Below, one piece after another: positions 3,540-55,926 of a stretch of DNA of 64,000 nt. This DNA comes from Promethearchaeia archaeon (GTDB lineage Archaea; Asgardarchaeota; Lokiarchaeia; Sigyniarchaeales; SOKP01), in the NCBI GenBank assembly GCA_029856125.1, contig JAHQWJ010000107.1:1-64000 (forward strand), in the 5' to 3' direction. A program made the translations under genes and the position numbers. Numbering within the stretch: the first letter of the stretch is position 1; each line of letters opens with the position of its first letter. The notes under the pieces are model-generated. The model ran no database searches, was not told the DNA's origin, and saw only the letters and a program-made list of their open reading frames with translations.

Positions 3540-3638
3540 GTTATTTCAACTCAAATTAATAAAGACTTTTTTTCAATTTTTTTTTTAATTATTTTTTAAT
3601 TATTTTTTACATAACTATTACTTTTTAAATTTTTTTTT

Positions 3639-3712
3639 ATGTGTTATATGGTGCTCCCATATCTTCAGCTGAGTTCTCATTTTTTTTAACTCAGCCTCAT
3701 TAGCTAACACAT
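3639..3712 (-). promoter_or_regulatory. Eukaryote-like SECIS element 1 (3' of mvhD; likely serves hdrA and mvhD)
   Basis: Minus strand: AUGUGUU-AGCUA-AUGA-G-GCUGAGUU-[AAAAAAAAUGAG]-AACUCAGC-U-GA-AG-AUAUGG-GAGCA-CCAUAU-AACACAU; perfect 8-bp upper helix and 7-bp lower helix, starting immediately after the mvhD stop. Confidence 0.9.
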
Positions 3713-4147
3713 TTATTTTTTTGAGGAGTTATTATTTTTTTTCCGTAATGGGCTCGGTCCAAGTTTCCGTATTTCTTCATCAAAAGAAGTTGCTACTTTT
3801 CGATATTTCGAACCTTCCGCTGAACTGCAATATTCCATTTTTAATCTTTTTGGGTTAAGTCCAACGGCTTTAACCACTTCTTTTATATAAGCAATTGACC
3901 TATGTGCAAAATAGTTACCTTTTTCATAATCACATTCTCCAGGATATCATCCAACAACGAGTATTCCGTCAGCACCTCTCCCAAAACTTCTCATAATTAC
4001 ATCCGCACCAACTCTTCCTGTACATGGAACTAACACGGTTCTTAAAGATATGGGGTATTGAGCTCTAATAGTTCCCGCCATATCAGCTGCACCATAGCCT
4101 CATTTTAAACATAAAAAGGATAGAATTTTAATATCGTCGTCTCTCAT
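3713..4147 (-). CDS. mvhD: MvhD/VhuD [2Fe-2S] subunit, selenoprotein with 2 Sec (U16, U67), 144 aa; missing from ORF track
   Basis: MRDDDIKILSFLCLK-U-GYGAADMAGTIRAQYP...VPCTGRV...GADGILVVG-U-YPGECDYEKGN...SSAEG...LGPSPL; TGA at 4100-4102 and 3947-3949 occupy conserved MvhD Cys positions; TAA stop at 3713-3715. Confidence 0.93.
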
Positions 4148-4160
4148 TTTAATTTCCTCT

Positions 4161-6122
4161 TTAATCTTCTATTGGCAATAATTCGTCAATATAAACTGAA
4201 TATTGAACGTCTTTGTAATGCGCTAAATCTATTGCTTTAGAAGGGCATATTGCAGTGCAAATTCCACAACCTCTGCAACTTATTACATCTACAACAATCT
4301 TTCCTTCATCATTAATAGAAATTGCATTGTATGGACAAGCATCAATACATTTATAGCATTTTGCACATCTTTCGTCTATTGGTTGGGCGCGTATTAATTC
4401 AATAATGTATTCTCCCTGTCCCATTGGAATGCCTGCTGAAGATGCTGCTCCTTTAGCCTGGCTTACAGTAAGTTCAATAGACTTCTGACCTTGACAAGAA
4501 CCTGCTAAATAGATACCTGGAACCTTAGTTTTGATTGGTTCTAGACGCGGATGAACTTCTTTTAGAAACCCATCTGATGATTTTTCGATATTCATTATAG
4601 CAGCAATTTCATTTGTGCCTTGAGATGGTAGTGATGCCGATGACAAAACAACCATATGAACTTCCATTTTTACTAGCGTATCAGTCCCAACAGGTTCAAA
4701 TTGAACGATAAGATTCTTTGTTAAAGGGTCTTCTTCTATTTTTCCTATCATCCCTTTAACAAAAAGAATTCCTGCATCTCTGGCTCTTTTGTAATACTCT
4801 TCATACATCTTCCCCGCACATCTCATATCTATATAACATACTGTAATTTCGGAATCGGGATATTCAGAGATTATAAGTTTGGAATTCTTAACAGATAAAT
4901 TACAGCAAACTACGCTACAATATGCATTCTTTTTTATATCTCTTGATCCTACGCAGTTAATGAATAATATTTTCTTTGGACGTTTTCTATCTGAGGGGCG
5001 TACCAAATGACCGAACATAGGACCATTTGGAGCAAGGATTCTTTCTAGTTGGATTTGTGTGATTACATTCTCGTATTTCCCGTACCCATAATCGTCTTCT
5101 TGATATATGTCCCACCCTGTTGCCACAATTATTGTTCCTATTTCAAGTTCTACTATTTCATCTTGTTGGCTAAAGTCAATTGCTTCCAAATCACAAGACT
5201 CGACACATGCAAAACATTCTACACACGATTCCCTTACAATATCATAAACTGCCGGAACTGCTTGAGCAAATGAAATATCGATGCACTTACGAGCTGACAG
5301 ATTTTCATCAAAATAATTAGGAACATATATAGGACATACTTCCGTACATGCACCACAGCCAGTACATTCGCTTTCAATGACAAATCGAGCTTTTCTGTTT
5401 ACATGGGCTCTAAAGTTACCTATGTATCCTTCGACTTTTACTACTTCACTATAAGTAAGCATTTCAATATTTGGATGGCGATCAGCTTCAAGCATCTTAG
5501 GTCCGAGAATTCATATTGAACAATCATCCGTGGGGAATGTTCTATCTAACTGAGACATACGACCACCGACTGTTGTCTTCTTTTCAACTAAATAAACTTT
5601 ATATCCCGCATCTCCCAAATCAATTGCAGCACTTAAACCAGCAATCCCTCCACCAATAACCAAACAAGTAGGGTTTACATCTACTGTTTTTGTAGGTATC
5701 TCTTCTAAAAATTGCGACCTTGAAATCCCTGCTTTTACTAATTCTATTGCTTTAAGTGTAGCGTCATCTCTTACTTCCATTGCTTGATGAACGTAACTAC
5801 AATGTTCTCTAATGTTTACAAATTCCAAATATCTCTGTGGTAATCCTGCTTCTTTTAAAATAGCGTGAAATACTGGTTCATGTGTTATTGGAGTTCAAGC
5901 AGCCAAGATAATTCTGTCGAAGCCTTTTTCGTCTATTTGTTCTTTCATAAATTCAGCTCCTCCAGACGTACACAAATTTAAATACTCGTAAGCGTAAACA
6001 TCATCGAGTTTATCAATTTCTTCTACAATTTTAGGCACATCTAAAATGCCTCCAATATTAACTCCTCATCTACATATAAATGCTCCGATTTTGTGTTTAC
6101 TATTGGTCTGTTCTTCAGACAA
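4161..6122 (-). CDS. hdrA: Heterodisulfide reductase subunit A, selenoprotein with 3 Sec (U19, U76, U204), about 653 aa; joins ORFs 5511..5828 and 4161..5495 with an unannotated N-terminus
   Basis: One frame from TTG 6122 (or GTG 6131): KIGAFICR-U-GVNIGG..NLCTSGG..DRIILAA-U-TPITHEP..EFVNIREHCS..GGGIAG..TFPTDDCSI-U-ILGPKM..; TGA at 6066-6068, 5895-5897 and 5511-5513; also CVGSRD, YCSVVCC and ferredoxin motifs. Confidence 0.93.
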
Positions 6123-6378
6123 ATTTTCCACCTTTTGTATTTGTATCCTCCTAATTTTAAATGTATCTTCTTATAACGATTTTTATTAATTGTACTTGAT
6201 TAAATAAATATGATCATGCAAATGGTTCTTATTATTAAAATTCAATTATTATTAGTTTTATACCGATTATTTTTGATTTTAAGACTTTCATCATTGCTGT
6301 TATAGTTGAAAATAACCAAATCAGATTTAAATAAAATAAACATAATATAGATCATATCTTTTTAGTAGGTGAATATTC

Positions 6379-34521: not shown

Positions 34522-35040
34522 ATGAATAATATGAACGAAGAACCGCCAAGGCCTAGTGGATTACCAGCGGGTTCTATAGCACCTATCTTTGATACTCAAG
34601 ACATCTACGGAAAAAAAATGAATTTAGAAAGCTTGCTTGAAGAATACGACGGAGTGTTGATTGATTTCTTTAGAGGAAACTGGTGAAGTCATTGCAAAAA
34701 ACATTTAACGCTACTAACCGAAAAAATATCTGAATTTGAGAAAAGGAATATTAAACTTATGTCAATAGCAAGCGATAGCGAAAGACTTTTAAAGAAATTT
34801 AAGGAAGAAAATAATTTTGCTGTTGATATGATCTCTGATCGTGGAGCTAAAATCGCAAAAGAATACGATGTTTACTGGTTTGCTCCCGGTGGAGGAGGAA
34901 CTTTAAATGTTAAACAAGCGGTGCCAAGCAAGTTTCTGATAAACAAGGACAGAAAAATCTTATGGACATACATAGGCAAAGATAAAACCGACAGGCCTTC
35001 TATAAAAATGATGACAGACATCATAGACGAAAAAATTTAG
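34522..35040 (+). CDS. Peroxiredoxin-like (AhpC/TSA) selenoprotein with UxxC motif
   Basis: From ATG 34522 or 34531: ..GLPAGSIAPIFDTQDIYGKKMNL..VLIDFFRGNW-U-SHC-KKHL.., continuing in frame into ORF 34759..35040; TGA at 34684-34686. Confidence 0.92.
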
Positions 35041-35043
35041 TCC

Positions 35044-35110
35044 CCCATAAGAATGAATCGTGAGTGAAAATTTTAGACTCCCGACGACGAACCTAGCAAG
35101 GTTTCATGGG
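35044..35110 (+). promoter_or_regulatory. Eukaryote-like SECIS element 2
   Basis: CCCAU-AAGA-AUGA-A-UCGUGAGU-[GAAAAUUUUAG]-ACUCCCGA-C-GA-CG-AACCU-AGCA-AGGUU-UC-AUGGG; 7 of 8 bp in upper helix; starts 3 nt after the stop and is followed by a U-tract. Confidence 0.88.
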
Positions 35111-35145
35111 TTTTTATTTTTTAGAAAAAAAAAGATAAGAAGTAA

Positions 35146-37203: not shown

Positions 37204-38496
37204 ATGGTGGAAAAAAAATTAGCTTGGTATGAAGCGACAATAATTAAAGATATGATGGGATTAATGGGTGGCAGAGCTTTAAGAGGAGGTATGTCAACCT
37301 ATATATCATCTAAAATCTATCAAGGAAAAGCATCATTACTTCGAGTAGCTAACTTGTTAGAGGCAACAATAGATCTAGAAGAAAGACGAGCGCTGATCAT
37401 AACGGATTCTTTTACTCAAAAATTTACCAAATATATAACAAAATACCTTGATAATATCAAAATGGAATATAAAATATGGTCTGGTGCAGAGCCAGAAGTA
37501 CCTATTTCGACTATTTACGAAGGAGCTAAGATTTGCGAGGAATTTAAACCACAAGTGTTAATTGCGATAGGAGGCGGTAGTGTAATGGATACAACAAAGA
37601 TGGTAATGGTCATATATGAAAAACCGGAAGTAAACCTTTTCATGATATTACCTTATTTTGGCTGTGTAGGATTACGAAAGAAATTCAAATATTTTATAGC
37701 GATCCCCACAACATCTGGGACTGGTTCAGAGGTAACTCAAGTTGCTGTAATTACTGACACTGATCGAGACCCTCCAAAAAAGCTTGAAGTGCTAAGCGAT
37801 GAGTTGGCTGCAGACATTACAATATTATTTACGGATTTTGTGAAGGATATGCCTCCATTTCTGACTATGGCTACAGGTTTGGATGCTTTTTCTCATGCTA
37901 TTGGAAGTTTTGTATCGAATTGGGGTAGCCCATATGTAGATGCAATGAATTCAACTGCGATAAAAGAAATACTAAAATACCTACCGCGCGCATATAAATA
38001 CGGTGCGAAAGATATCGAAGCGAGGGAACACATGCAGATGGCTTCGCTGATGGCGGGAGTAGGATTTGGCAATACCGCACCCGGAATAGACCATTCGTTA
38101 GGACATAGTTTTGGCAAAATTTTCAATGTTCATCATGGGCTTAGTGTAGGCTTATTCACGGTTTATTCCATTGCATTTCAAGCAAAAATAACTGACCGGT
38201 GGAAATTATTGTGTCCTATTTTCAATATACAAGAAGAAAACAAGAGTCGAAAAGAATTACTTACTGAATTTCTTCAAGCTGTACGAGATTTTATTGTATC
38301 TCTTGACGCACCAATACGCGTAAAAGATATGAAGGATCCTGTAATTACTCAAGAAGAATACAATGACAAACTTGATTTATTAACTAACTATGCTGCTGAC
38401 GATGCTGTGGCTCTGACCTCTTTTCGAACGATGAGTGAAAAACTATTCAAGACCATTTTTGAATATGCCTGGGATGGGCAAGATATAGATTTTTGA
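37204..38496 (+). CDS. Iron-containing alcohol dehydrogenase
   Basis: AIGGGSVMD, IPTTSGTGSEVT, GLDAFSHA, HSLGH..HHG. Confidence 0.9.
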   Translation: MVEKKLAWYEATIIKDMMGLMGGRALRGGMSTYISSKIYQGKASLLRVANLLEATIDLEERRALIITDSFTQKFTKYITKYLDNIKMEYKIWSGAEPEVPISTIYEGAKICEEFKPQVLIAIGGGSVMDTTKMVMVIYEKPEVNLFMILPYFGCVGLRKKFKYFIAIPTTSGTGSEVTQVAVITDTDRDPPKKLEVLSDELAADITILFTDFVKDMPPFLTMATGLDAFSHAIGSFVSNWGSPYVDAMNSTAIKEILKYLPRAYKYGAKDIEAREHMQMASLMAGVGFGNTAPGIDHSLGHSFGKIFNVHHGLSVGLFTVYSIAFQAKITDRWKLLCPIFNIQEENKSRKELLTEFLQAVRDFIVSLDAPIRVKDMKDPVITQEEYNDKLDLLTNYAADDAVALTSFRTMSEKLFKTIFEYAWDGQDIDF

Positions 38497-38505
38497 GGGA
38501 AAAAA

Positions 38506-40383
38506 ATGAGTGAAAATTTAATTGGATATAATGGAAAAATAGCATATGTTAACTTAACTGACGAAAAAGTTGATGTTAAAGAGTTAGATCCTCAAATTGC
38601 GAAAGATTACCTTGGAGGTACGGGTTTGAGCGCTAAAATAACATACGATCTGTTATCGGAAACCGATTACGGAACTTTAAAAAACGATCCTTATTCTGAG
38701 ATAAATCCTTTAATATTTGCTACCGGACCAGTTACAGGAACGACTCGGCCATCTTCAGGAAGATATTCAGTAACAGCAATCTCACCTCTCACAGGAATTT
38801 GGGGGGAAGGCACTTCTGGAGGTTATTTCCCAATTTCTCTACGAAATAGCGGTTTTGATGCGATAGTGATTACCGGAAAATCTAAAAAACCTACCTATCT
38901 CTACATTCACGACGAAATCATTGAATTTAAGGATGCTATTACTATTTGGGGAAAAGATACTTACGAAAGTCAATCAATTTTGAAATCAGAACTTAATAAC
39001 GATAAAGCTCGGATTGCTACGATAGGAATCGCTGGTGAAAATCTCGTGAAATACGCGGGAATCATTAACGACGAAGGACGCGCTATAGGACGATCTGGTA
39101 TGGGCGCCATTATGGGGTCAAAAAACTTGAAAGCATTAGCAATTCACGGAACTAAAAGAGTTCAAATCGCAGACAATGCTGTAGGCAAAGAATTGTTAAA
39201 GCAAGAAGAGGATGTTAAACGCAAAGACCTACTTAAAACATTGGTCCCATTTCTTTTCACGCTGTATGGGACGAATTGTTATCTAGATATGGGAATGGCT
39301 CTGGGCGATACTCCCGGTTATTATTTCACTAGAAACGAGTTCTTTGCCGATAAACTTACGGGAAAAACGTTACGAGAAGAATACCCCGTTTTAGATTATG
39401 GTTGTGCCGGATGTACTATGAGGTGTGGTAAGACAACTATTATAGAGAACAATGGTAAAGAGATTAAAGTAGATGGTCCGGAATACGAATCAGTAGCTGC
39501 TTTTGGACCATTATGCGGCGTCTTTGATTCTAAGAAAGTAATCCTTTCCAATCACATGTGCAATGTCTATGGTTTTGATACAATTTCAAGTGGAGTTTCG
39601 ATCGCTTTCTTAATTTATTTAGTAGAAAACAACCTAGGGATTGAGAACATTAAGCAACACTTAAAGGATATTAATATTGGAGACATAAAATGGGGAAACG
39701 GAGATGTAGTGTTAAAATTACTTGATAAAATTGCGATCAGAGAGGATATAGGTAAAATTCTCGCAGATGGAGTAAAAGCAATGGCAAAAGAGCTTAATGT
39801 GGATCCTGAGCTAGCAGCCCACGTAAAAGGTTTAGAGATACCAATGCACGATCCAAGAGCATTTTCCGGACAAGCATTGAGCTATATGACCTGTTATATG
39901 GGCGCTAACCACGAAAAGTGCGATTGGTTTGGTGCGGAATTATTGCTCTTTAAATATCCGAAAATCAGAGTAAAATCGGGAGATAGAGTTGCAATCAGAG
40001 GTAGAGAAAAAGGGGTTATATCCTTACAAGATTTAAGAGCAATTGATGACTCCGCCACTAATTGTAATTTCATAAACCCCCCACTCGACCACATTATCAA
40101 ATTTATCAACGCATCTACAGACTTTAACTATAGCAAAAAATCCTTAATGCTTGTTGGAGAACGAATAAATACTCTTAAAAGGCTCATAAGTTGTAAACTA
40201 GGAACAACCAGGCAAGATGACCGATTACCAAAACATGTTCTCAAGGAATTAAAATCGGGTAAAACAGGGGGCGTAAAATTAGACTTAGAAGGGAGTTTAG
40301 AAACATATTATAAAATTCGTGGATGGGCTTGGGAGACTGGTTGGCCATCAAAAGAAAAACTCGAAGAACTAAATATACAATAA
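38506..40383 (+). CDS. aor: Tungsten-dependent aldehyde:ferredoxin oxidoreductase family protein (second copy)
   Basis: SPLTG, IGIAGE, GRSGMGAIMGSKNLKA, CAGCTMRC, GPEYES, GFDTIS, KGLEIPMHDPR. Confidence 0.9.
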   Translation: MSENLIGYNGKIAYVNLTDEKVDVKELDPQIAKDYLGGTGLSAKITYDLLSETDYGTLKNDPYSEINPLIFATGPVTGTTRPSSGRYSVTAISPLTGIWGEGTSGGYFPISLRNSGFDAIVITGKSKKPTYLYIHDEIIEFKDAITIWGKDTYESQSILKSELNNDKARIATIGIAGENLVKYAGIINDEGRAIGRSGMGAIMGSKNLKALAIHGTKRVQIADNAVGKELLKQEEDVKRKDLLKTLVPFLFTLYGTNCYLDMGMALGDTPGYYFTRNEFFADKLTGKTLREEYPVLDYGCAGCTMRCGKTTIIENNGKEIKVDGPEYESVAAFGPLCGVFDSKKVILSNHMCNVYGFDTISSGVSIAFLIYLVENNLGIENIKQHLKDINIGDIKWGNGDVVLKLLDKIAIREDIGKILADGVKAMAKELNVDPELAAHVKGLEIPMHDPRAFSGQALSYMTCYMGANHEKCDWFGAELLLFKYPKIRVKSGDRVAIRGREKGVISLQDLRAIDDSATNCNFINPPLDHIIKFINASTDFNYSKKSLMLVGERINTLKRLISCKLGTTRQDDRLPKHVLKELKSGKTGGVKLDLEGSLETYYKIRGWAWETGWPSKEKLEELNIQ

Positions 40384-40452
40384 TTTATTTTTTTTTATGG
40401 TTAAATTAAAAATAACCCCTCATAGCAAATATCTAAATAAAATTATTTCTTT

Positions 40453-41436
40453 TCAATCTCTATTTTGATAAGTAATTTCTTCTAAAGCTTCTAAAAAATA
40501 ATCGTTTTCTTTTCTAGTTCCTATTGTAACCCGAAAATATTCTGAACCAAGTTGTTTTGATACGTCGAGTACCAATACTCCTTGCTCGATTAATTTTTTT
40601 GAAATGTTAGGTATTTTTGTTTTCATTAATAAAAAATTCGAATAACTTTTAAAAACTGAGATATCTAATTTTAAAGCAACACTTCTAATTCGATTTTTTT
40701 CTTTTTCGACTATTTTAATATATTCTATTGCATAGTTTTTATTTTTCAAGGCACTTATGCCAGCTACTACGCTTGGATAAGGGAGCATTGTATTAATTCC
40801 GAGAAACCTCTTTTGGATAGTCTCTCCTCCAATTATATATCCTATTCCTAGCCCAGACAATCCAAACCCCTTACTTAATGTTCTTAAAATAGCTAGATTA
40901 GGGTGATCTGCGATTAAATTAGCATATGTTACATTTGAAAATTCAAAATAAGCTTCGTCTACTAAAAAAATGTTGTTTTCATTTTCTAAAATCAACTTTA
41001 CTTCATTTTTATCTAAAATTATATTTCCAGTTGGATTGTTAGGGTTATCTAAAATAATTAATGTTGGTTTTTTTAACTCATCAATTAGCGGTACAATTGA
41101 AAATTTAAATTCAGGTTCTTTTAATCTTATCTTTAAAATTGAAGAATAGGTCTTTCGACAGGTCGCGTTAATTAAAAAAAATGACGGATCAGCGAGAATA
41201 ATTTGTCTATTTTTCGAAAAAAGATAAATAAATTCTTTAAGCAAGATATCAGATGCGGAACTAAGAATAATTGAATCTTTAGGAGAGTTCGTATAAATAT
41301 TTAATAAGGATAATAATTCGTCTGCTTTACTTTGAGGAGTATATCGATTTAAGAATCCTATGCTTTTTTTGATAGGATCGGTAATCGCTCTTGGGAGCTT
41401 TATAGACATTTCGTTTCGATCCAATCTAATTAACAT
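40453..41436 (-). CDS. HisC/CobC-like class I/II PLP aminotransferase
   Basis: LDRNE, DNPNNPTG, DEAYFEF, RTLSKGFGL. Confidence 0.8.
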   Translation of the reverse strand: MLIRLDRNEMSIKLPRAITDPIKKSIGFLNRYTPQSKADELLSLLNIYTNSPKDSIILSSASDILLKEFIYLFSKNRQIILADPSFFLINATCRKTYSSILKIRLKEPEFKFSIVPLIDELKKPTLIILDNPNNPTGNIILDKNEVKLILENENNIFLVDEAYFEFSNVTYANLIADHPNLAILRTLSKGFGLSGLGIGYIIGGETIQKRFLGINTMLPYPSVVAGISALKNKNYAIEYIKIVEKEKNRIRSVALKLDISVFKSYSNFLLMKTKIPNISKKLIEQGVLVLDVSKQLGSEYFRVTIGTRKENDYFLEALEEITYQNRD

Positions 41437-46690: not shown

Positions 46691-46824
46691 ATCTTTTCAT
46701 CTTTTATATCAAATATCTTATATGATTTATTTGTTGTTAAATCATTTAAATATTTAATTCAAGTAGTGAATATCAAAAAAAGAGGAAAATAATAATCAGT
46801 TTTCCTAATATAATATAGTAATAT

Positions 46825-46884
46825 TTGATAACCCGTGCAAGGTAGTCCTCAAGCGTCTAGAATTTATACACTTGAATCATTCAA
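46825..46884 (-). promoter_or_regulatory. Eukaryote-like SECIS element 3
   Basis: Minus strand: UUGA-AUGA-U-UCAAGUGU-[AUAAAUUCUAG]-ACGCUUGA-G-GA-CU-ACCU-UGCAC-GGGU-UA-UCAA; 8 of 8 bp in upper helix including one G-U. Confidence 0.87.
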
Positions 46885-46899
46885 TTTTTATTTTTGGAA

Positions 46900-47406
46900 T
46901 TAATTTTGTAAATAAGTATCAATCGCGTTTAGAATATCTTGAATTTTAGGTCTATCTGTTTTAGTACCGATATAACGCCACACGATTTTACCATTTCGAT
47001 CTATTAGGTAAGTTGAAGGAATTGCGAGCTCACTTTTGATCGTATCATAATCTATTGGTATTCCAAAGACATTATAATCTTTTGAAATCTTTGCTTGTTC
47101 GTCCGCAATTATCGAAAATTTATAGTTTTCCTTGTCGGCAAGCCGTTTTAAAAGTCTTGCTCTATCCGTTGCGATTGACACAAATTTTACATTTCTCATT
47201 TCAATTTCAGATATATCGTTGTTAAGTTTTAATAATTGTTCCTTTCAATAGTGTCACCAAGCACCTCTGAAAAAATCGATTAATAATCCGCGGTATTCTT
47301 GAAGAACATCTGTTGAATTGATTTTAGCTCCATGGATATCAACAGTATCAATCACTGGTGCCATGCTCCCTGTCTTTAAACCTTTTTCAGAATTTGAGAC
47401 AGTCAT
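46900..47406 (-). CDS. Peroxiredoxin-like (AhpC/TSA) selenoprotein with UxxU motif (U51, U54), 168 aa
   Basis: MTVSNSEKGLKTGSMAPVIDTVDIHGAKIN..LLIDFFRGAW-U-HY-U-KEQLLKL..EIEMRNVKFVSIATD..; TGA at 47254-47256 and 47245-47247, in frame with ORF 46900..47199. Confidence 0.9.
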
Positions 47407-54677: not shown

Positions 54678-55280
54678 TTATATCACCCGTTTTTCTAAAG
54701 AATTAACCCAATATTTCAGTATGCTTTCTCCAGTTGTTTTACTTTTTTCTGGATGAAATTGTATTGCTAAAATTGTCCCATACTTAAAAATAACTCCAAA
54801 TTTTACTCCGTGTAAAGTAAATGCAATAATCATATTCTCATCTACTGCATCACAATAATATGTGTGGTTAAAATATGCAAAACCAGAGAAATACGGCTCT
54901 TTCAATGCAATTACTCGGTTCCACCCCGTATGTGGGACACGAATAGAATTAGTGGGTGTTAACTTCTTCACTTTTCCAGAAAAAATGCCTAATCCCTCAA
55001 CACCTGGACTTTCTTCAGAATTATTGAATAATAACTGTAATCCTAAACATATTCCTAATGTTGGTTTTGTTGGTATAATTTGTTTTAATAGGTTAAAGAG
55101 CCCTTTTCGCTTTAATTCTTCTACAGCATCTCCAAAAGCTCCCACACCTGGTAGAACAATACCATTTGCTTTTTCAATCTCTTCTCTTTCATTAGTTATT
55201 ATTACATCTGAATAATATCGTTGTAATGATCGCTGGACAGATCGTAAATTTCCAATCCCATAATCAATTATTGTAATCAT
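54678..55280 (-). CDS. hisH: Imidazole glycerol phosphate synthase glutaminase subunit
   Basis: [31 protein letters not shown]. Confidence 0.95.
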
Positions 55281-55320
55281 GAATAACTCCTCGAATATTT
55301 AAAAAGTGCACCTTATTGTT

Positions 55321-55926
55321 TCATAAAATTCCCTTCGTAGATGGGATACTGCCTCTTCGTTTAAGATCTAACCGAGAAGCTTTATCCAGTGAAGATCCGA
55401 GAGCTTTAAAAACCGACTCTGCCATGTGGTGATCATCTTTCCCATAAAGCACTTTCACATGTAGCGTTATACTAGCATGGATCGCAAATGTCTGTAAAAA
55501 ATGTTCTATCAATGTGAGAGGTATCAATTCGTCTTGATTCTTTCCAAAATATTTACCCGTCCAAGGGATATTAATAATTGAATAGGGACGATTGGAAAAA
55601 TCAACAACAACTAATGCTAGAGCTTCATCCATAGGAACGTAAGAGTGTCCAATGCGGCTAATTCCTGATTTATCTCCGATTGCATGCTTAAAAGCTTTTC
55701 CTAACACTATCCCTACATCCTCTATGGTATGATGAGTATCGACATGCAGATCTCCAGTAGCTTTCACCTCAATGTCAAAAATTCCATGAATAGCGATGTG
55801 ATTTAACATATGATCGAAAAATCCTATACCTGTATTTATGTTTGCATTTCCAGAGCCATCTAAGTTAAGCGAAACATTAATAGTAGATTCTTTCGTTTTT
55901 CTTTCTTGTTCTGATTGACGATTCAT
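55321..55926 (-). CDS. hisB: Imidazoleglycerol-phosphate dehydratase
   Basis: TGIGFFDHML, GDLHVDTHHTIED, PMDEAL, HHMAE, PSTKG. Confidence 0.95.
   Translation of the reverse strand: MNRQSEQERKTKESTINVSLNLDGSGNANINTGIGFFDHMLNHIAIHGIFDIEVKATGDLHVDTHHTIEDVGIVLGKAFKHAIGDKSGISRIGHSYVPMDEALALVVVDFSNRPYSIINIPWTGKYFGKNQDELIPLTLIEHFLQTFAIHASITLHVKVLYGKDDHHMAESVFKALGSSLDKASRLDLKRRGSIPSTKGIL

What the first reader, a model, noticed from the sequence alone, without database searches (positions are those of the whole stretch)
46825..47406. UxxU (potential diselenide) thioredoxin-fold selenoprotein, paralog of the UxxC gene
Seen: FFRGAW-TGA-CAC-TAT-TGA-AAG gives U-H-Y-U. It aligns residue for residue with the paralog's W-U-S-H-C, so the second TGA replaces the resolving Cys. 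A SECIS follows about 15 nt after the stop. Established: UxxU motifs are rare; the best-known case is SelL, which forms a very low-potential diselenide. Inference: the two paralogs, 12 kb apart, show a Cys/Sec switch at one site and form a natural selenenylsulfide versus diselenide pair. Two UGAs three codons apart must be decoded by one SECIS.
Basis: partly seen in the sequence, partly recalled or inferred. Interest (0 to 1): 0.85.

Follow-up and report, generated by a model that had tools for sequence, protein, structure and literature searches.

The report
Asgard two-selenocysteine Prx-like redox protein
This is a real gene for a small redox protein whose two active-site cysteines are both replaced by selenocysteine, but exactly this protein type (PrxL.1, next to a one-selenocysteine paralog PrxL.2) was already described in Lokiarchaeota in 2016, so it is a confirmation, not a discovery.

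Summary
The minus-strand ORF 46900-47406 (168 aa) reads FFRGAW-U-H-Y-U-KEQ, with in-frame TGAs at codons 51 and 54. A Loki-type SECIS follows, with its AUGA starting 20 nt after the stop.

Evidence that both TGAs are real and translated:
- They are kept in five same-genus orthologs (83-93% identity) and in more distant ones.
- Contigs from three other sediment studies show no difference at either codon.
- dN/dS is 0.12-0.34 on both sides of the TGAs.
- TGA is an ordinary stop elsewhere in this genome.

The genome is an Asgard (Lokiarchaeia / Promethearchaeota) MAG. It has SepSecS, a PSTK-like gene and two Sec-containing SelD genes. I did not find tRNA-Sec or EFSec in this draft.

Mariotti et al. 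2016 (PMC4989117) described Lokiarchaeota PrxL.1 (UxxU, diselenide proposed, compared with SelL) and PrxL.2 (UxxC), each with one lokiSECIS.

- About a third of 120-odd PrxL genes in 400 genomes of the phylum are UxxU.
- The first position is Sec in all 78 genes checked.
- The second position switched between Cys and Sec at least five times.
- The two window genes are old paralogs, not a recent switch.

Whether Sec is actually inserted and whether a diselenide forms remain untested.

The parts
46900..47406 (-). PrxL.1-type selenoprotein CDS: 168 aa, ATG at 47406, TAA stop at 46900-46902, AhpC/TSA-Redoxin fold
   Evidence: translation. (PF00578 2.3e-22, PF08534 1.1e-18). (AF2 pLDDT 93). (BCP/PrxQ and AhpE folds, TM about 0.8).
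47254..47256 (-). First in-frame TGA = Sec51, the position of the nucleophilic Cys of a WCxxC box, at the N-cap of helix 52-63
   Evidence: It aligns to the first Cys of the ResA CxxC. This position is Sec in 78 of 78 Asgard PrxL genes checked.
47245..47247 (-). Second in-frame TGA = Sec54, the position of the resolving Cys of CxxC, which is also the peroxidatic Cys position of true Prx
   Evidence: Kept in orthologs L025-L032. No difference in contigs of runs X4, X7, X8 and X16.
46818..46894 (-). Loki-type SECIS. Helix I 5' strand UUGA 46884-46881; AUGA 46880-46877; helix II 5' arm 46876-46868; apical loop AUAAAUUCUAG 46867-46857; 3' arm 46856-46848; GA 46847-46846; small side hairpin about 46844-46829; helix I 3' strand UCAA 46828-46825
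   Evidence: CM R1 scores it 72.7 bits (it was in the training set). Covariation over 68 elements: helix II 90.8% paired, 9 of 9 pairs changed on both sides, 0 of 500 shuffles as high.
34522..35040 (+). Paralog, PrxL.2 type, W-U55-S-H-C (TGA at 34684-34686), 172 aa
   Evidence: Orthologs carry the same UxxC box.
35039..35115 (+). Loki-type SECIS of the paralog: AUGA, 9-position stem with two mismatches, loop GAAAAUUUUAG, GA, side hairpin, helix I CCCAU/AUGGG
   Evidence: 66.2 bits.

Best explanation
The gene encodes a cytoplasmic member of the Asgard Prx-like (PrxL) selenoprotein family, of the PrxL.1 type. It has a peroxiredoxin-shaped thioredoxin fold. Its active site is a thioredoxin/TlpA-style W-C-x-x-C box plus a cis-Pro loop, with both Cys replaced by selenocysteine (W-U51-H-Y-U54). 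Both UGA codons, three codons apart, are recoded by the single eukaryote-like SECIS in the 3' UTR about 370 nt downstream; this step is inferred from conservation. Sec51 sits at the N-cap of the first helix and is Sec in every family member checked, so it is the likely attacking nucleophile. Sec54 occupies the position that toggles between Cys and Sec in evolution and most likely resolves the intermediate, forming an intramolecular diselenide; the paralog would form a selenenylsulfide. The substrate and the reductant are unknown. The most likely role is a low-potential thiol/selenol-disulfide oxidoreductase or a hydroperoxide/disulfide reductase in an anaerobe. This chemistry is inferred, not shown.
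For: Sequence and frame. Fold and motif: Pfam AhpC-TSA/Redoxin. AF2 pLDDT 93, with the helix starting at residue 52. Best structural matches are BCP/PrxQ and AhpE. Best sequence match is ResA, with U51/U54 aligned on its CxxC and the invariant P130 on its loop Pro. Both TGAs real and selected: kept in 5 same-genus orthologs, where dS reaches 0.69 and dN/dS is 0.12-0.34 on both sides. Kept in more distant orthologs at 57-61% identity. Kept in contigs of three other studies. Read as W-W in code-4 gene calls of other metagenomes. TGA is a normal stop here: 256 of 1963 long ORFs. SECIS: it matches every published lokiSECIS feature. These are AUGA, a 9-bp stem, an 11-nt A-rich loop ending AG, and GA. 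The strict motif gives 9 genome hits against 0-1 in shuffles, and one of the hits follows HdrA plus VhuD in this window. Covariation is strong. Sec trait: SepSecS 451 bits, a PSTK-like gene, two SelD genes with an in-frame TGA. Nucleophile assignment: position 1 is Sec in 78/78, position 2 is Sec in 38 and Cys in 40. Literature: PMC4989117 describes the same family, motif, SECIS and diselenide proposal.
Against: There is no protein-level evidence of Sec insertion or of a diselenide. tRNA-Sec and EFSec were not found in this 153-contig draft. In Lokiarchaeota the tRNA carries a T-loop intron and lies about 6 kb from EFsec, so one assembly gap could hide both. Helix I of this gene's SECIS is weak: 4 contiguous AU-rich pairs. 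Single-sequence folding energy is not better than shuffles (z = -1.17). Neighbouring genes (SDRs, an unknown 530-aa protein) give no functional context. The only RNA-labelled run that covers the gene is flagged as probably DNA.
Confidence: 0.9

Rival explanations
1. It works as a selenium peroxidase in the Prx manner. Sec54, which aligns with the peroxidatic Cys of BCP/PrxQ, attacks the hydroperoxide, and Sec51 (at the Thr/Ser position of TxxC) resolves or assists. On this reading the enzyme is not a thioredoxin-like disulfide exchanger.
For: The overall fold is closest to BCP/PrxQ and AhpE. U54 aligns with the Cp of A. pernix BCP. The bacterial selenoprotein Prx carries TxxU (table quoted).
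Against: The Prx catalytic Arg position is a near-invariant Ser131 preceded by the invariant Pro130, as in ResA/TlpA. The Thr/Ser of the Prx motif is absent. The invariant selenium is at position 1, while position 2 is Cys in half of the family, which fits a position-1 nucleophile.
Confidence: 0.2
2. The in-frame TGAs are decoded, but not as selenocysteine: for example near-cognate Cys/Trp read-through, or translation ends at codon 50 with a separate 99-aa product starting at Met70, as public annotation has it.
For: Databases annotate only the 99-aa C-terminal fragment ('TlpA family protein disulfide reductase', 'peroxiredoxin'). tRNA-Sec and EFSec were not found in this draft.
Against: The N-terminal 50 codons are under the same purifying selection, in the same frame, as the C-terminal part. 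A 99-aa fragment would lack the active site and half of the fold. A covarying SECIS follows nearly every family member. SepSecS, a PSTK-like gene, Sec-type SelD genes, and HdrA/VhuD genes with in-frame TGAs are all present.
Confidence: 0.04
3. It is a pseudogene or an assembly/sequencing artefact carrying two nonsense mutations.
For: None beyond the two stop codons under table 11.
Against: Both TGAs stay at identical codons in orthologs of 57-93% identity from many genomes and studies. dN/dS is well below 1. They fall exactly on the two redox-box positions.
Confidence: 0.01

Closest known systems
Lokiarchaeota PrxL.1 / PrxL.2 (Mariotti et al. 2016, PMC4989117). [quoted passage not shown] Found in 43% of Sec-using Asgard archaea (PMC11227280).
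   Same: Same fold. Same redox box with Sec at both positions (PrxL.1) or at the first only (PrxL.2). No other Cys in the protein. One lokiSECIS (AUGA, 9 bp, 11-nt loop, GA) right after the stop. Same host group. The diselenide hypothesis and the SelL comparison are already stated there.
   Different: Nothing essential; this is another genome's copy. Added here: the frequency of UxxU (about a third), invariance of Sec at position 1, repeated Cys/Sec switching at position 2, and the old age of the window's UxxU lineage.
SelL (eukaryotic Prx-like selenoprotein with UxxU; Shchedrina et al. 2007, cited in PMC4989117 and PMC2398784)
   Same: A Prx-like/thioredoxin-fold protein with a U-x-x-U box. 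Two UGAs two codons apart are served by one 3'-UTR SECIS. A diselenide was shown for SelL (from the literature, not tested here).
   Different: SelL is found in aquatic eukaryotes, this gene in Asgard archaea. No orthology was shown: the NCBIfam model 'SelL-related redox protein' scores 43 bits against a cut-off of 120 and covers only the N-terminal half. No SelL sequence was available to place on the tree.
ResA / TlpA family thiol-disulfide oxidoreductases (PDB 4nmu, 1st9)
   Same: Best sequence match in the PDB (E = 1.4e-9). A W-C-x-x-C box at the helix N-terminus and a conserved Pro loop.
   Different: Those proteins are Cys enzymes, membrane-anchored and extracytoplasmic. This one has Sec at both positions and no N-terminal hydrophobic segment. 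Its overall fold is nearer to BCP/PrxQ.
BCP/PrxQ and AhpE peroxiredoxins (PDB 3hjp, 2cx3, 1xvw)
   Same: Closest three-dimensional fold (TM 0.75-0.83). U54 aligns with the peroxidatic Cys.
   Different: It lacks the Thr/Ser of the PxxxT/SxxC motif and the catalytic Arg; the aligned position is Ser131 after Pro130.

Membership tests
Asgard PrxL selenoprotein family (Mariotti 2016) | AhpC/TSA (Prx-like) thioredoxin fold | tested here: met
   PF00578 at 79.7 bits against a cut-off of 26. AF2 pLDDT 93 with Prx-fold matches.
Asgard PrxL selenoprotein family (Mariotti 2016) | CxxC-type redox box with Sec at the first position (PrxL.2) or at both (PrxL.1), and no other Cys in the protein | tested here: met
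   W-U51-H-Y-U54. No further Cys or Sec in the 168 residues.
Asgard PrxL selenoprotein family (Mariotti 2016) | lokiSECIS just after the stop: AUGA, 9-bp stem, 11-nt loop with an A-rich start and a final G usually preceded by A, then GA | tested here: met
   AUGA, UUCAAGUGU, AUAAAUUCUAG, ACGCUUGAG, GA, with 9 of 9 pairs. Covariation across 68 elements. Features as listed.
Asgard PrxL selenoprotein family (Mariotti 2016) | Host is a Sec-using Asgard (Lokiarchaeia) archaeon with full Sec machinery | tested here: inconclusive
   Relatives are named 'Promethearchaeota archaeon'. SepSecS, a PSTK-like gene, two Sec-type SelD genes, and HdrA/VhuD genes with in-frame TGAs are present. tRNA-Sec and EFSec were not found in this draft.
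SelL / SelL-related redox proteins | Sequence membership (NCBIfam NF040769, SelL_rel_redox) | tested here: not met
   43.4 bits against a cut-off of 120; only residues 19-113 match.
SelL / SelL-related redox proteins | UxxU box that forms an intramolecular diselenide | not testable with these tools
   The motif is present. Bond formation needs protein chemistry.
Canonical peroxiredoxin (BCP/PrxQ type) | PxxxT/SxxCp motif and the conserved catalytic Arg | tested here: not met
   In the alignment to 2cx3, Ser of SxxC falls on U51, Cp falls on U54, and the Arg falls on Ser131. P130 is invariant and S131 is at least 90% conserved across 60 PrxL.
TlpA/ResA thiol-disulfide oxidoreductases | WCxxC at the helix N-terminus plus a cis-Pro loop | tested here: met
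   U replaces C in the box. The box and P130 align to ResA 4nmu. The helix starts at residue 52. The cis conformation itself was not checked.
TlpA/ResA thiol-disulfide oxidoreductases | Membrane anchor or signal peptide; extracytoplasmic location | tested here: not met
   The N-terminus MTVSNSEKGLKTGSMAPVID has no hydrophobic segment. This was read by eye; no predictor was run.

The most novel reading that the evidence does not exclude
The Asgard PrxL family is a natural replicated experiment. The attacking residue is always Sec, while the resolving residue has switched between Cys and Sec at least five times. The window's gene belongs to an old lineage fixed as UxxU that coexists in the same genomes with UxxC paralogs. 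If the two states differ in function rather than being near-neutral (diselenide meaning a much lower redox potential or a different partner), the family would give matched natural pairs for measuring what a second selenium buys. I did not find the repeated switching stated in the papers I read.
Probability: 0.4. Interest if true: 0.45.

Novelty: already known. Interest (0 to 1): 0.25.

Why it matters
Diselenide redox boxes are rare, and how one SECIS recodes two nearby UGAs is of interest for selenoprotein biology. Both points were already made for exactly this protein family in Lokiarchaeota in 2016.

The practical value here is in annotation. Public records carry this gene as a 99-aa 'TlpA/peroxiredoxin' fragment, or as a W-for-TGA mistranslation.

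There is also a modest new evolutionary picture: Sec is obligate at position 1, and position 2 toggles repeatedly between Cys and Sec. That picture points to good natural pairs for redox-potential measurements.

Tried and rejected
- **Rfam scan:** a gathering-threshold scan of the whole window found no family, so the eukaryotic SECIS models do not see these elements.
- **Single-sequence folding:** MFE folds of the two 3' UTRs are not better than shuffles (z = -1.17 and -0.53). The evidence for the SECIS comes from comparison, not from folding energy.
- **tRNA-Sec:**
  - RF01852 on the genome gave only tRNA-Leu genes at about 30 bits.
  - ARAGORN at default, with introns and at lowered thresholds gave nothing credible.
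  - Two scans of my own, for a UCA anticodon arm plus a 9-bp acceptor stem, found nothing.
  - The published Loki tRNA-Sec has a 31-nt T-loop intron, so this is 'not found', not 'absent'.
- **EFSec:** the TIGR00475 hits are aEF1A, aIF2-gamma, larger GTPases, and a 366-aa EF-Tu-domain-2 protein without a P-loop (C32, P0006). None looks like EFSec.
- **Other read-through ORFs in the window** (37204-40383, 40369-41436, 55192-55926) are ordinary TGA stops between or after genes, not selenoproteins.
- **Gene neighbourhood:** SDRs, a 3-hydroxyacyl-CoA dehydrogenase and proteins with no Pfam match suggest no redox partner.
- **Expression:** the only metatranscriptome-labelled run covering the gene (X16) is flagged as probably DNA, so I make no claim.
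- **Huang et al. 2024 supplements:** the held files contain none of the terms UxxU, Prx-like or diselenide.
- **Helix I of the SECIS:** my longest-run statistic against shuffled tails discriminates poorly in this AT-rich sequence (7.1 against 5.5).

Full report
**1. What is in the sequence**

On the minus strand, 47406 to 46900 is an ATG-to-TAA frame of 168 codons that is open only if two TGAs are read through. It gives ...LIDFFRGAW-U51-H-Y-U54-KEQLL.... The TGAs lie at 47254-47256 and 47245-47247.

About 12 kb away, 34522-35040 (+) gives a 172-aa paralog with one in-frame TGA, FFRGNW-U55-S-H-C-KKH. The two proteins are 48% identical and align without a gap across the motif, so the second TGA falls exactly on the paralog's Cys.

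Both proteins are AhpC/TSA-Redoxin proteins. Other frames in the window that open under TGA=U are just neighbouring genes or run-on after ordinary TGA stops. TGA ends 256 of 1963 long ORFs in the genome, so there is no genome-wide reassignment.

**2. Are the TGAs real and translated?**

A six-frame search of 400 genomes of the same phylum found the family in 93 of them. That includes 85 of 134 genomes in the window's own family-level group.

- Every full-length hit better than about 1e-19 contains at least one in-frame TGA. The two TGA-free hits in that range are fragments that do not reach the redox box.
- Five same-genus genomes hold orthologs of 83-93% identity, with TGA at both codons.
- Three more distant orthologs (57-61% identity) also keep both TGAs.
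- Among five full-length orthologs (the window's gene and four of these), dS reaches 0.69. dN/dS is 0.12-0.34 in codons 1-50 and 0.14-0.34 in codons 55-168, in one frame.
- Contigs from three other marine-sediment studies cover both codons without any difference, although they differ elsewhere at 7-29 positions.
- In the big protein collection the gene appears in two forms. One is a 99-aa fragment starting at Met70, named 'TlpA family protein disulfide reductase' or 'peroxiredoxin'. The other is a full-length product with W at both sites, which is code-4 gene calling and again shows TGA-TGA.

**3. The SECIS**

The AUGA starts 20 nt after the stop. The UTR there reads AUGA, UUCAAGUGU, AUAAAUUCUAG, ACGCUUGAG, GA, with 9 of 9 pairs. 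The paralog has the same layout with 7 of 9 pairs.

This matches every feature that Mariotti et al. list for the lokiSECIS:

- AUGA before the stem
- a 9-bp stem
- an 11-nt loop with an A-rich start and a final G preceded by A
- GA after the stem

A strict form of the motif hits the 3.69-Mb genome 9 times against 0-1 in shuffles. One of those hits, at 3700 (-), follows an HdrA gene (3 in-frame TGAs) and a VhuD/FrhD gene (2 in-frame TGAs) in this same window, just as published.

Across 68 elements aligned without reference to structure, helix II is 90.8% paired. All nine pairs show changes on both sides, and none of 500 shuffles reached the observed values. A covariance model built from them finds exactly three elements in the window.

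Single-sequence folding energy is not informative, and Rfam has no matching family.

**4. Host and machinery**

The closest public records are 'MAG: Promethearchaeota archaeon', the current NCBI name used for these Asgard MAGs. The DNA recurs in marine sediment, cold seep and subsurface metagenomes.

The genome has SepSecS (451 bits), a PSTK-like gene (169 bits, below the curated cut-off) and two SelD genes, each with an in-frame TGA.

I did not find tRNA-Sec or EFSec. In Lokiarchaeota the tRNA has a 31-nt intron in the T-loop and lies about 6 kb from EFsec. A single gap in this 153-contig draft could therefore hide both; that is an inference.

**5. What kind of enzyme**

AlphaFold2 with 60 family members gives pLDDT 93.

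- **Fold.** The best structural matches are BCP/PrxQ and AhpE peroxiredoxins (TM 0.75-0.83). ResA appears further down the list.
- **Sequence.** The best solved relative is ResA. U51 and U54 align on its CxxC, and the invariant Pro130 aligns on its loop proline.
- **Against BCP.** U51 falls on the Ser/Thr of the Prx motif and U54 on the peroxidatic Cys. The Prx catalytic Arg falls on a near-invariant Ser131.

The scaffold is therefore Prx-like, but the active site is thioredoxin/TlpA-like, as the name 'Prx-like' implies.

Sec51 sits at the N-cap of helix 52-63. In 78 Asgard PrxL genes, position 1 is always Sec, while position 2 is Sec in 38 and Cys in 40 (the sample was enriched for two-TGA hits). 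That pattern fits Sec51 as the nucleophile and residue 54 as the resolving partner. On that reading this gene would form a diselenide and the paralog a selenenylsulfide. This chemistry is inferred and was not tested. The Prx-type alternative, with Sec54 as the peroxidatic residue, keeps about 0.2.

**6. Comparison with what is known**

Mariotti et al. 2016 (PMC4989117) report two Prx-like genes in Lokiarchaeota. PrxL.2 has one Sec at the first Cys of the redox box, and PrxL.1 has Sec at both. They note that the proteins have no other Cys and that a lokiSECIS follows each gene. They propose a diselenide whose only other known case is SelL, and they point out that one SECIS serves nearby UGAs.

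Huang et al. 2024 (PMC11227280) find Prx-like selenoproteins in 43% of Sec-using Asgard archaea. Reviews list the family as 'UxxC, UxxU'.

The finding is therefore correct and already known. It is not a SelL family member by the one model available (43 against 120 bits).

- In the 400-genome sample, about 39 of roughly 120 PrxL hits carry two or more in-frame TGAs (my count). All 37 of those that I fetched are UxxU at the aligned columns.
- On a quick maximum-likelihood tree of 79 genes, the window's gene lies in a clade of 9 with 99% SH-aLRT support. All nine are UxxU, and they span two genera.
- The UxxC paralog lies in a separate 43-member clade of mixed states.
- Parsimony needs 9-10 changes of state, and well-supported branches force at least 5.
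- Holding all UxxU genes together is rejected (AU p = 1.4e-38).
- In a sister genus the two types often sit in tandem, each with its own SECIS.
- No Cys/Cys form was found inside the Asgard family.

I saw no statement of the repeated switching in the papers I read. The tree used a quick search and should be repeated with a careful one.

**8. Verdict**

The gene is a real PrxL.1-type selenoprotein with a UxxU box and its own SECIS. Interest is low to moderate.

Noticed in passing
window 46825-46845 (-), 35089-35112 (+), 3638-3660 (-); own-genome loci L094-L099: Every Loki-type SECIS in this genome has a small hairpin after the 3' GA (consensus xACCyuGyraGGGUx). It is followed by a strand that pairs with the 5' flank before AUGA, which makes a three-helix junction. 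On the 68-element alignment the hairpin is 83.6% paired and helix I 64% (limited by alignment register). The main text of Mariotti 2016 does not mention it, and Huang 2024 models only an internal loop and a lower stem.
   Followed up: partly
window 46881-46894 and 46818-46828 (-); L025-L028: In the window's UxxU gene and its same-genus orthologs, helix I of the SECIS is much weaker than in most other PrxL genes, which have AAUCCCA/UGGGAUU. Here the 5' flank is almost all A/U and only UUGA/UCAA pair contiguously.
   Followed up: no
window 3638-6131 (-): An HdrA gene (4161-6131, three in-frame TGAs) is directly followed by a VhuD/FrhD-type gene (3713-4147, two in-frame TGAs). A single Loki-type SECIS lies after the second gene (3638-3714). 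This is the published shared-SECIS arrangement.
   Followed up: partly
G000 contig C24:553-2855 (L006, L007): Two adjacent SelD (selenophosphate synthetase) genes, each with one in-frame TGA.
   Followed up: no
G000 contig C32:34502-35602 (L019:1315-2415, P0006): A 366-aa EF-Tu-like protein with domain 2 but a degenerate G domain (no P-loop GxxxxGK[ST]). It is the third-best hit of the SelB model and its role is unknown. It does not look like EFSec.
   Followed up: partly
L030, L036, L059, L078 (relatives): Some PrxL genes end in TGA as the true stop codon, a few codons to about 20 nt before their own SECIS. In these mRNAs one or two UGAs are read as Sec and a third, close to the SECIS, terminates.
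   Followed up: no
L054 (G143:C1:3622700-3624000), 3' UTR: In a more distant family of the same order, the PrxL 3' UTR seems to hold a SECIS with a longer helix II (about 11-12 bp) and AA instead of GA on the 3' side. This was read by eye in one sequence only.
   Followed up: no
G000 contig C84:111342-116233: Three near-identical tRNA-Leu(UAG) genes lie within 5 kb.
   Followed up: no
window 37204-40383 (+): An iron-type alcohol dehydrogenase and an aldehyde:ferredoxin oxidoreductase lie in the same frame, separated only by a TGA stop. They look like one ORF under TGA=U but are two genes.
   Followed up: partly
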